DNA from: Escherichia coli
GTDB lineage: Bacteria; Pseudomonadota; Gammaproteobacteria; Enterobacterales; Enterobacteriaceae
NCBI RefSeq assembly: GCF_003334355.1
Contig: NZ_QOWP01000017.1
Reading direction: 5' to 3' (one strand)
DNA length: 64,000 bases
Shown: positions 60,054-61,457 of the stretch, one piece after another
Position numbering within the stretch: the first letter of the stretch is position 1
How the letters are laid out: each line of letters starts with the position of its first letter
Notes under the pieces: model-generated
The model's database searches: none
What the model was told of the DNA's origin: nothing
Seen by the model: the letters and a program-made list of their open reading frames with translations, nothing else
Translations under genes and position numbers: made by a program

Positions 60054-61457
60054 ATGTCTGACCATAATCCACTGACATTAAAACTGAATCTGCGGGAAAA
60101 AATCTCCTATGGTATGGGCGACGTCGGTTCGAATTTAATGCTCTGCATCGGTACTCTGTATCTCCTCAAATTTTATACCGATGAATTAGGGATGCCTGCT
60201 TACTATGGCGGGATTATCTTTCTGGTGGCGAAGTTTTTTACCGCGTTTACCGATATGCTCACCGGATTTTTACTCGACTCGCGGAAAAATATTGGGCCTA
60301 AAGGCAAATTTCGTCCCTTTATTTTATATGCAGCGGTTCCGGCGGCGTTAATTGCAACGCTCCAGTTTATCGCCACCACCTTTTGTTTGCCGGTTAAAAC
60401 GACGATTGCCACCGCGCTGTTTATGATGTTTGGACTTTCATACAGTCTGATGAACTGCTCGTATGGTGCGATGATCCCGGCAATTACCAAAAACCCGAAT
60501 GAGCGCGCGCAGCTCGCGGCTTACCGCCAGGGTGGTGCAACCATAGGGCTATTGATTTGTACCGTGGCGTTTATTCCGTTGCAGTCGCTTTTTTCTGACT
60601 CAACCGTCGGTTATGCCTGTGCGGCACTTATGTTCTCCATTGGCGGCTTTATTTTTATGATGCTGTGCTACAGAGGCGTCAAAGAGCATTATGTGGACAC
60701 AACGCCAACCGGACATAAAGCCAGTATTCTCAAATCATTTTGCGCGATATTTCGGAATCCGCCATTGCTGGTTTTATGCATTGCTAACTTGTGTACCCTG
60801 GCGGCATTTAATATCAAACTGGCGATTCAGGTCTATTACACCCAGTATGTGCTGAATGATATTAATTTATTGTCGTGGATGGGATTCTTCAGTATGGGAT
60901 GCATCCTCATCGGCGTATTACTGGTGCCATTAACTGTAAAATGTTTTGGTAAATAACAGGTTTATCTGGCTGGCATGGTGCTGTGGGCGGTGGGTGATAT
61001 ACTGAATTATTTCTGGGGAAGTAACTCTTTCACTTTCGTCATGTTCTCTTGTGTCGCCTTTTTTGGCACGGCCTTTGTAAACAGCCTGAACTGGGCACTG
61101 GTACCAGATACCGTAGATTACGGTGAATGGAAAACCGGTATTCGTGCCGAAGGTTCTGTTTATACCGGTTATACCTTCTTTCGTAAAATTTCTGCCGCAC
61201 TTGCTGGCTTCTTGCCAGGCATTATGCTGACGCAAATTGGTTATGTTCCCAACATCGCGCAAAGCGATGCGACATTACAGGGTTTGCGTCAGCTCATTTT
61301 TATCTGGCCTTGTGCACTGGCAATTATTGCTGCATTGACGATGGGATTCTTTTACACACTCAATGAAAAACGGTTTGCATTGATTATTGAGGAAATCAAC
61401 CAACGCAAAAATAAAGAGATGGCGACAGAAGAAAAAACGGCTTCCGTAACGTTATAA
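60054..61457 (+). pseudogene. yihO: GPH-family transporter YihO, interrupted by in-frame TAA at 60954..60956
   Basis: Track ORFs 60048..60956 and 60975..61457 share one frame; ...CFGK-TAA-QVYLAGMVLWAV aligns with YihP FGKKKVYIGGLLIWVL, so stop replaces a Lys codon; read-through length 467 aa. Confidence 0.6.

What the first reader, a model, noticed from the sequence alone, without database searches (positions are those of the whole stretch)
60940..60980. Paralogous transporter yihO has a premature in-frame TAA at the homologous region
Seen: ...CFGK then TAA (60954..60956) then QVYLAGMVLWAV continues in the same frame, aligning with FGKKKVYIGG of YihP, so a Lys codon appears to have become a stop. 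Both putative transporters of the cluster being disrupted within about 20 aligned codons of each other, while the catabolic enzymes yihQRSTUV are intact, is a striking coincidence. Inference: it suggests loss of uptake in this strain, or a systematic assembly artefact.
Basis: partly seen in the sequence, partly recalled or inferred. Interest (0 to 1): 0.4.

Follow-up and report, generated by a model that had tools for sequence, protein, structure and literature searches.

The report
Ordinary nonsense mutation in yihO
One A-to-T change turns lysine codon 301 of the E. coli sulfoquinovose importer gene yihO into a stop, in a small natural lineage whose neighbouring transporter gene yihP was already frameshifted; this is ordinary gene decay, not an assembly error and not a new mechanism.

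Summary
yihO (60054-61457, +) has an in-frame TAA at 60954-60956, codon 301 of 467. K-12 and the closest complete genome, PSS-12, both have AAA (Lys) there. None of 5,426 complete RefSeq E. coli genomes carries the TAA.

It is not an assembly artefact. The window is the first 64 kb of NCBI draft contig QOWP01000017.1 (GCA_003334355.1). The same allele sits on an identical 6.9-kb contig assembled from reads of four sequencing runs, including SRR3823860 and ERR4578542.

The yihP frameshift is a 1-bp G deletion in codon 278. It is older: it also occurs in PSS-12, GCA_003293365.1, ERR10677920 and SRR24680064, all of which have an intact yihO. So the order was yihP first, then yihO.

The two lesions lie 29 aligned codons apart, which would happen by chance about 12% of the time. 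That is not striking.

The truncation falls where MelB has R296. It removes roughly the last four transmembrane helices and the conserved DTVDYGEW loop. A K-12 yihO deletion cannot grow on sulfoquinovose, so this strain is predicted to be sulfoquinovose-negative. yihO inactivation is recurrent in E. coli, and 28% of complete genomes lack yihOP altogether. Interest is low.

The parts
60054..61457 (+). yihO pseudogene. It is the ortholog of K-12 yihO (467 codons), a GPH/MFS_2-family putative sulfoquinovose importer, and differs from K-12 YihO only by A18S and K301*.
   Evidence: Pfam PF13347 hits on both fragments; MelB homology E=8e-40.
60954..60956 (+). Premature TAA stop at codon 301. The ancestral codon is AAA (Lys301); the change is a single A-to-T transversion at 60954.
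60951..60956 (+). AAATAA, which is AAAAAA in other strains. This A6 tract (codons K300-K301) also carries independent +1/-1 frameshifts and an IS1 insertion in other E. coli assemblies.
   Evidence: L009, L011, L015: A5; L012, L014: A7; L010: +G; L013: IS1.
60054..60953 (+). N-terminal remnant ORF of 300 aa, corresponding to about helices I-VIII by alignment with MelB.
60975..61457 (+). C-terminal remnant ORF of 160 aa, starting at Met308, 18 nt after the TAA. Its Shine-Dalgarno pairing is weak (-3.2 kcal/mol, against -8.8 for the yihO start).
58627..60011 (+). yihP pseudogene (putative DHPS exporter paralogue, 65% identical to YihO). One G is deleted between 59459 and 59460 (CTG TTG becomes CT- TTG, codon 278). 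The site is not a homopolymer.
   Evidence: (PGAP note 'frameshifted' in PSS-12).
61525..62217 (+). ompL, the intact downstream porin gene. No terminator-like or promoter-like site was found between yihO and ompL on the + strand, so Rho-dependent polarity from the premature stop is possible. This is inference only.
50367..58581 (.). The rest of the long yih cassette, all full length: csqR(-), yihV(-), yihU, yihT, yihS, yihR, yihQ.

Best explanation
This is a real, lineage-specific nonsense mutation. A single A-to-T transversion at 60954 changed Lys301 (AAA) of yihO to TAA, in a small natural E. coli sublineage that already carried a 1-bp frameshift in the adjacent paralogue yihP. The truncated product (300 aa) lacks roughly the last four transmembrane helices and the conserved DTVDYGEW loop, so the putative sulfoquinovose importer is inactive. 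The strain is predicted not to grow on sulfoquinovose, even though all the catabolic enzymes are intact. Shown here: the lesion, its ancestral state, its presence in independent data sets, and the order of the two events. Inferred: the loss of function and the growth phenotype. The whole picture is stepwise decay of a dispensable pathway that is often lost in E. coli.
For: The TAA is in frame at codon 301. K-12 and PSS-12 have AAA. PSS-12 differs from the window by only 9 SNPs over 44.4 kb and shares the yihP deletion but not the TAA. The window equals NCBI draft contig QOWP01000017.1 at identical coordinates. An identical 6,907-bp read-assembly contig with both lesions comes from 4 runs, including SRR3823860 and ERR4578542. 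The yihP frameshift with an intact 467-aa yihO is found in PSS-12, GCA_003293365.1, ERR10677920 and SRR24680064, so the TAA allele is nested inside the yihP-frameshift lineage. K301 aligns with MelB R296, and the residues after it include the conserved stretch that aligns best with MelB. Delta-yihO mutants fail to grow on sulfoquinovose (PMC6278857). yihO is broken independently in many other assemblies and by IS elements in complete genomes (H5 and H6). 1,529 of 5,426 complete genomes lack yihOP altogether, which matches the 'short cassette' of PMC12608037.
Against: No phenotype data exist for this strain. YihO transport activity has never been measured directly (bioRxiv 10.1101/2021.11.10.468170). 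A restart at Met308, 18 nt after the stop, could in principle give two fragments that complement each other. I could not inspect raw reads, only assemblies made from them. One of the four runs may be the read set behind the NCBI draft itself.
Confidence: 0.9

Rival explanations
1. Sequencing or assembly artefact: the T at 60954, and the missing G in yihP, are base-calling or consensus errors in one draft assembly.
For: The window comes from a draft (contig-level) assembly. The TAA is absent from all 5,426 complete RefSeq genomes. It lies inside an A tract, and homopolymers are error-prone.
Against: The TAA is a substitution, not the indel that homopolymer errors usually produce. An identical contig was assembled independently from 4 runs with both SRR and ERR accessions. 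The yihP deletion is not in a homopolymer (CCTGTTG becomes CCTTTG) and recurs in a complete hybrid genome and at least 4 other data sets.
Confidence: 0.02
2. Functional split permease: ribosomes that terminate at the TAA restart at ATG 60975 (Met308). An N-terminal 8-helix fragment and a C-terminal 4-helix fragment then assemble into a working transporter, as shown for lactose permease expressed in two pieces (established knowledge: Bibi and Kaback 1990, recalled, not read here).
For: The stop lies in a predicted loop after the hydrophobic segment 277-295 rather than inside a helix. An in-frame ATG follows 18 nt later, and the downstream frame is untouched.
Against: Shine-Dalgarno pairing before ATG 60975 is weak (-3.2 kcal/mol, against -8.8 at the real yihO start). 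Residues 301-307 would be lost. The same 160-aa ORF is left behind by many unrelated frameshift and IS lesions, so it is a by-product and not a conserved arrangement. The allele is confined to a tiny sublineage.
Confidence: 0.04
3. Adaptive second hit: once the putative DHPS exporter YihP was lost, continued sulfoquinovose import became harmful because the sulfonate end product accumulated. Selection then favoured knocking out the importer YihO.
For: The order of events is yihP first, then yihO. Both hits are in the transporters while all the enzymes stay intact.
Against: Several sublineages keep the yihP frameshift with an intact yihO. Eight of the 10 sampled genomes with a broken yihO have an intact 461-aa yihP, so yihO loss does not need prior yihP loss. 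YihP function is uncharacterised. Two events cannot separate selection from drift.
Confidence: 0.04

Closest known systems
E. coli K-12 YihO (b3876), putative sulfoquinovose importer of the sulfo-EMP (yih) cassette
   Same: Same locus between yihP and ompL. 465 of 467 codons are identical (differences A18S and K301*). Same GPH/MFS_2 family.
   Different: Truncated at codon 301, so it cannot be a full 12-helix permease.
Other naturally inactivated yihO alleles, and the 'short' yih cassette (yihTUVW) of many E. coli strains such as Nissle 1917 (PMC12608037)
   Same: Same outcome: loss of the sulfoquinovose transport step. This is recurrent across the species: frameshifts, IS1/IS5/IS10-like insertions, and whole-gene deletion.
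   Different: Here the lesion is a unique point nonsense mutation. It is combined with a yihP frameshift, while the catabolic genes are retained.
Salmonella/E. coli melibiose permease MelB (PDB 4M64, 7L16), structural prototype of the GPH family
   Same: Alignable over residues 11-439 (E=8e-40). YihO K300/K301 align with MelB R295/R296.
   Different: Different substrate. Only about 25-30% identical, so it serves here only to map what the truncation removes.

Membership tests
YihO ortholog (sulfo-EMP cassette importer) | High sequence identity to K-12 YihO and conserved position between yihP and ompL | tested here: met
   1,402 of 1,404 nt identical to K-12 yihO. Gene order yihQ-yihP-yihO-ompL is the same as in K-12 and PSS-12.
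YihO ortholog (sulfo-EMP cassette importer) | Uninterrupted 467-codon reading frame | tested here: not met
   TAA at codon 301. The locus is therefore a pseudogene of the family, not a functional member.
GPH / MFS_2 (PF13347) cation symporters | Profile or sequence match to the family across the protein | tested here: met
   Precomputed PF13347 hits on both the 300-aa and the 160-aa fragments. phmmer hit to MelB over residues 11-439, E=8e-40.
Genuine pseudogene (as opposed to an artefact) | Intact ancestral state in close relatives, and the lesion reproduced in independent data sets | tested here: met
   AAA in PSS-12, GCA_003293365.1, ERR10677920, SRR24680064 and K-12. TAA in the NCBI draft plus contigs from 4 runs.
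Genuine pseudogene (as opposed to an artefact) | Loss of function (no sulfoquinovose transport or growth) | not testable with these tools
   Inferred from the K-12 delta-yihO phenotype (PMC6278857) and from the loss of about 4 helices. No data exist for this strain.
Programmed recoding (stop-codon readthrough, selenocysteine, frameshifting) | A conserved stop at the same site in orthologues, a UGA or leaky context, or a recoding signal | tested here: not met
   The stop is TAA, is absent from all other genomes examined, and is not conserved. No frameshift could restore the frame, because the frame is unchanged.

The most novel reading that the evidence does not exclude
The A6 tract at yihO codons 300-301 may be a real mutational hot spot through which E. 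coli lineages repeatedly switch off the sulfoquinovose importer. In that case this TAA, arising after loss of the putative DHPS exporter YihP, would be a selected second hit rather than drift. Alternatively, the two remnant ORFs might still work as a split permease.
Probability: 0.07. Interest if true: 0.3.

Novelty: already known. Interest (0 to 1): 0.08.

Why it matters
It matters little beyond strain annotation. It predicts that this lineage cannot use the plant sulfosugar sulfoquinovose, and it adds one more case to the known variability of the yih cassette in E. coli. It is also a clean small example of stepwise pathway decay, with transporters lost first and enzymes still intact. The practical lesson is that the double disruption is real biology, not an assembly problem.

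Tried and rejected
1. L006 (SRR10330952) at first looked like a second, yihP-intact carrier of the 300-aa product. Its contig simply ends at window position 60953, so the 'match' comes from looking up an exact 300-aa string. Ignored.

2. I considered yihS G358S (55136 G-to-A, in the conserved DYENGSWWQELD motif) as a sign that the enzymes are decaying too. The S358 protein occurs in 98 blocks of the collection, including genomes with intact yihP and yihO. It is therefore a standing allele and not evidence of decay.

3. A mutator or low-quality-assembly explanation does not fit. There are only 9 SNPs against PSS-12 in 44 kb. Five are derived in the window's lineage: 2 synonymous, 1 intergenic, 1 missense and this nonsense change. 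Nothing suggests an excess of errors.

4. I tried to read Denger et al. 2014 (PMID 24463506) for the delta-yihP phenotype. The paper is not held.

5. The promoter/terminator scan between yihO and ompL found nothing informative on the + strand.

Full report
**What is there**

The window carries the long E. coli yih (sulfoquinovose, sulfo-EMP) cassette on the + strand. The genes are csqR and yihV (- strand), then yihU, yihT, yihS, yihR, yihQ, yihP, yihO and ompL, followed by yihN. yihO runs from 60054 to 61457.

The sequence at the reported site reads ttt ggt aaa TAA cag gtt. Translating the whole gene gives ...LTVKCFGK*QVYLAGMVLWAV... with no other interruption down to the normal stop.

**Ancestral state**

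Over the yihP-yihO stretch (2,864 nt), the closest complete genome is PSS-12 (NZ_AP027697.1). It differs from the window by a single base: A instead of T at 60954.

K-12 MG1655 differs from the window at four positions, including the same A at 60954 and an extra G after 59459. The codon was therefore AAA (Lys301), and one A-to-T transversion made it TAA.

An 81-nt query centred on the site has no exact match in any of 5,426 complete RefSeq E. coli genomes. The best hits have one mismatch.

**Real, or an artefact?**

An exact look-up of the 300-aa truncated product found a 6.9-kb contig, assembled from public reads, that is 100% identical to the window. It carries both the yihP frameshift and the yihO TAA. 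The contig was seen in four runs, including SRR3823860 and ERR4578542.

A fifth 'hit' (SRR10330952) is only a contig that happens to end at 60953. I discarded it.

Looking up the window's YihS variant showed that the window equals positions 1-64000 of NCBI draft contig QOWP01000017.1 (GCA_003334355.1). The locus returned at record positions 47065-62306 is identical to the same window coordinates. No protein is on record there for yihP or yihO.

The lesion is a substitution, not a homopolymer-length error. The yihP deletion (CCTGTTG becomes CCTTTG) is not in a homopolymer either. The assembly-artefact reading is rejected.

**Order of events**

The yihP frameshift splits the product into 295 aa and 175 aa.

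- Among complete genomes it is found only in PSS-12.
- It also occurs in GCA_003293365.1, ERR10677920 and SRR24680064, all with an intact 467-aa yihO and AAA at codon 301.
- The TAA allele therefore sits inside the yihP-frameshift lineage, so yihP was hit first and yihO later.

Over 44.4 kb the window differs from PSS-12 by 9 SNPs. With K-12 as outgroup, five arose on the window's branch: two synonymous, one intergenic, yihS G358S and yihO K301*. That is ordinary divergence, not a mutator or low-quality signature.

**The 'coincidence'**

YihP and YihO are 65% identical paralogues. The yihP deletion is in codon 278, which aligns with YihO codon 272. The yihO stop is at codon 301. The distance is 29 aligned codons, not about 20.

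For two independent lesions placed at random in about 460 codons, a separation of 29 or less happens about 12% of the time (my arithmetic). The lesions differ in kind and arose at different times. Nothing here needs a common cause.

**Consequence**

YihO is a GPH/MFS_2 transporter (PF13347 on both fragments). It aligns with MelB over residues 11-439 (E=8e-40), and K300/K301 align with MelB R295/R296.

The stop follows the hydrophobic segment 277-295. By homology it removes about four C-terminal helices, including the DTVDYGEWKTGIR stretch that aligns best with MelB.

K-12 delta-yihO fails to grow on sulfoquinovose (PMC6278857). YihP is only presumed to export DHPS and has not been characterised. 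I infer that the strain cannot take up sulfoquinovose, although every enzyme of the pathway is full length and, apart from YihS G358S, identical to K-12.

Met308 (ATG 60975) lies 18 nt after the stop and opens a 160-aa ORF. Its Shine-Dalgarno pairing is weak (-3.2 kcal/mol, against -8.8 at the yihO start). The same ORF is left behind by many unrelated lesions. A working split permease is therefore unlikely, though not excluded.

No terminator-like or promoter-like site lies between yihO and ompL on the + strand. Some Rho-dependent polarity on ompL is possible, but this is inference.

**Context**

Loss of this function is common in E. coli.

- 1,529 of 5,426 complete genomes have no yihOP match at all. 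This matches the published 'short cassette' yihTUVW (PMC12608037).
- Two complete genomes have IS elements in yihO (H5 and H6).
- The cluster of N-terminal YihO fragments has 388 members.
- The 160-aa remnant ORF is listed in 217 blocks of the collection.

Among ten such loci, several have +1/-1 changes in the very A6 tract (codons 300-301) where the window has its A-to-T change. They lie on at least two allelic backgrounds, and there is also an IS1 insertion at that spot. The sample is biased towards lesions near Met308, and some of these may be homopolymer sequencing errors.

Eight of the ten have an intact yihP. yihO loss therefore does not depend on prior yihP loss, which argues against a compensatory-selection story.

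**Verdict**

This is a real but ordinary lineage-specific nonsense mutation, the second step in the decay of a dispensable pathway that is often lost. The artefact alternative and the 'striking coincidence' do not.

Noticed in passing
window 1-19614: The left 19.6 kb is part of a P2-like prophage (replication endonuclease, terminase, capsid, portal). An integrase-like ORF at 18489-19499 sits next to the junction. The prophage is inserted between fieF and cpxP. PSS-12 lacks it, and collinearity with PSS-12 starts exactly at 19615. The best match is strain EC31 at 99.2%. The contig, and so the window, begins inside the prophage.
   Followed up: partly
window 60951-60956 (K-12 yihO nt 898-903); loci L008-L016: The A6 tract encoding K300-K301 of yihO carries independent lesions in other assemblies: A5 in L009, L011 (DEC7C) and L015; A7 in L012 and L014; an inserted G in L010; and an IS1 insertion with its target at nt 898-908 in L013. 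It may be a mutational hot spot. However, the sample is biased by the way I looked it up, and some cases may be homopolymer sequencing errors.
   Followed up: partly
window 55136 (yihS codon 358): G358S lies in the DYENGSWWQELD motif, which is conserved between the E. coli and Salmonella YihS crystal-structure sequences. It is derived relative to PSS-12, GCA_003293365.1 and K-12. The S358 protein is nevertheless widespread (98 blocks) in genomes with intact yihP and yihO, so it is a standing allele, possibly imported by recombination.
   Followed up: yes
window 58627-60011 (yihP), deletion between 59459 and 59460: The yihP frameshift defines a small natural lineage: PSS-12 from Ecuador, GCA_003293365.1, ERR10677920, SRR24680064 and the window's sublineage. 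Among 5,426 complete genomes only PSS-12 has it.
   Followed up: yes
window 54852 (yihS codon 263), in PSS-12 only: PSS-12 has its own derived YihS change, L263Q (CTG to CAG). The window and K-12 keep Leu. This is another private missense change in the same cassette within the yihP-frameshift lineage.
   Followed up: no
hits H5 and H6 (NZ_CP070962.1 K-12 J53; NZ_AP027800.1 strain 2017.10.01CC): In these complete genomes yihO is interrupted by an IS4-like ISVsa5 element and an IS5 element respectively. These are further independent inactivations of the same gene.
   Followed up: no
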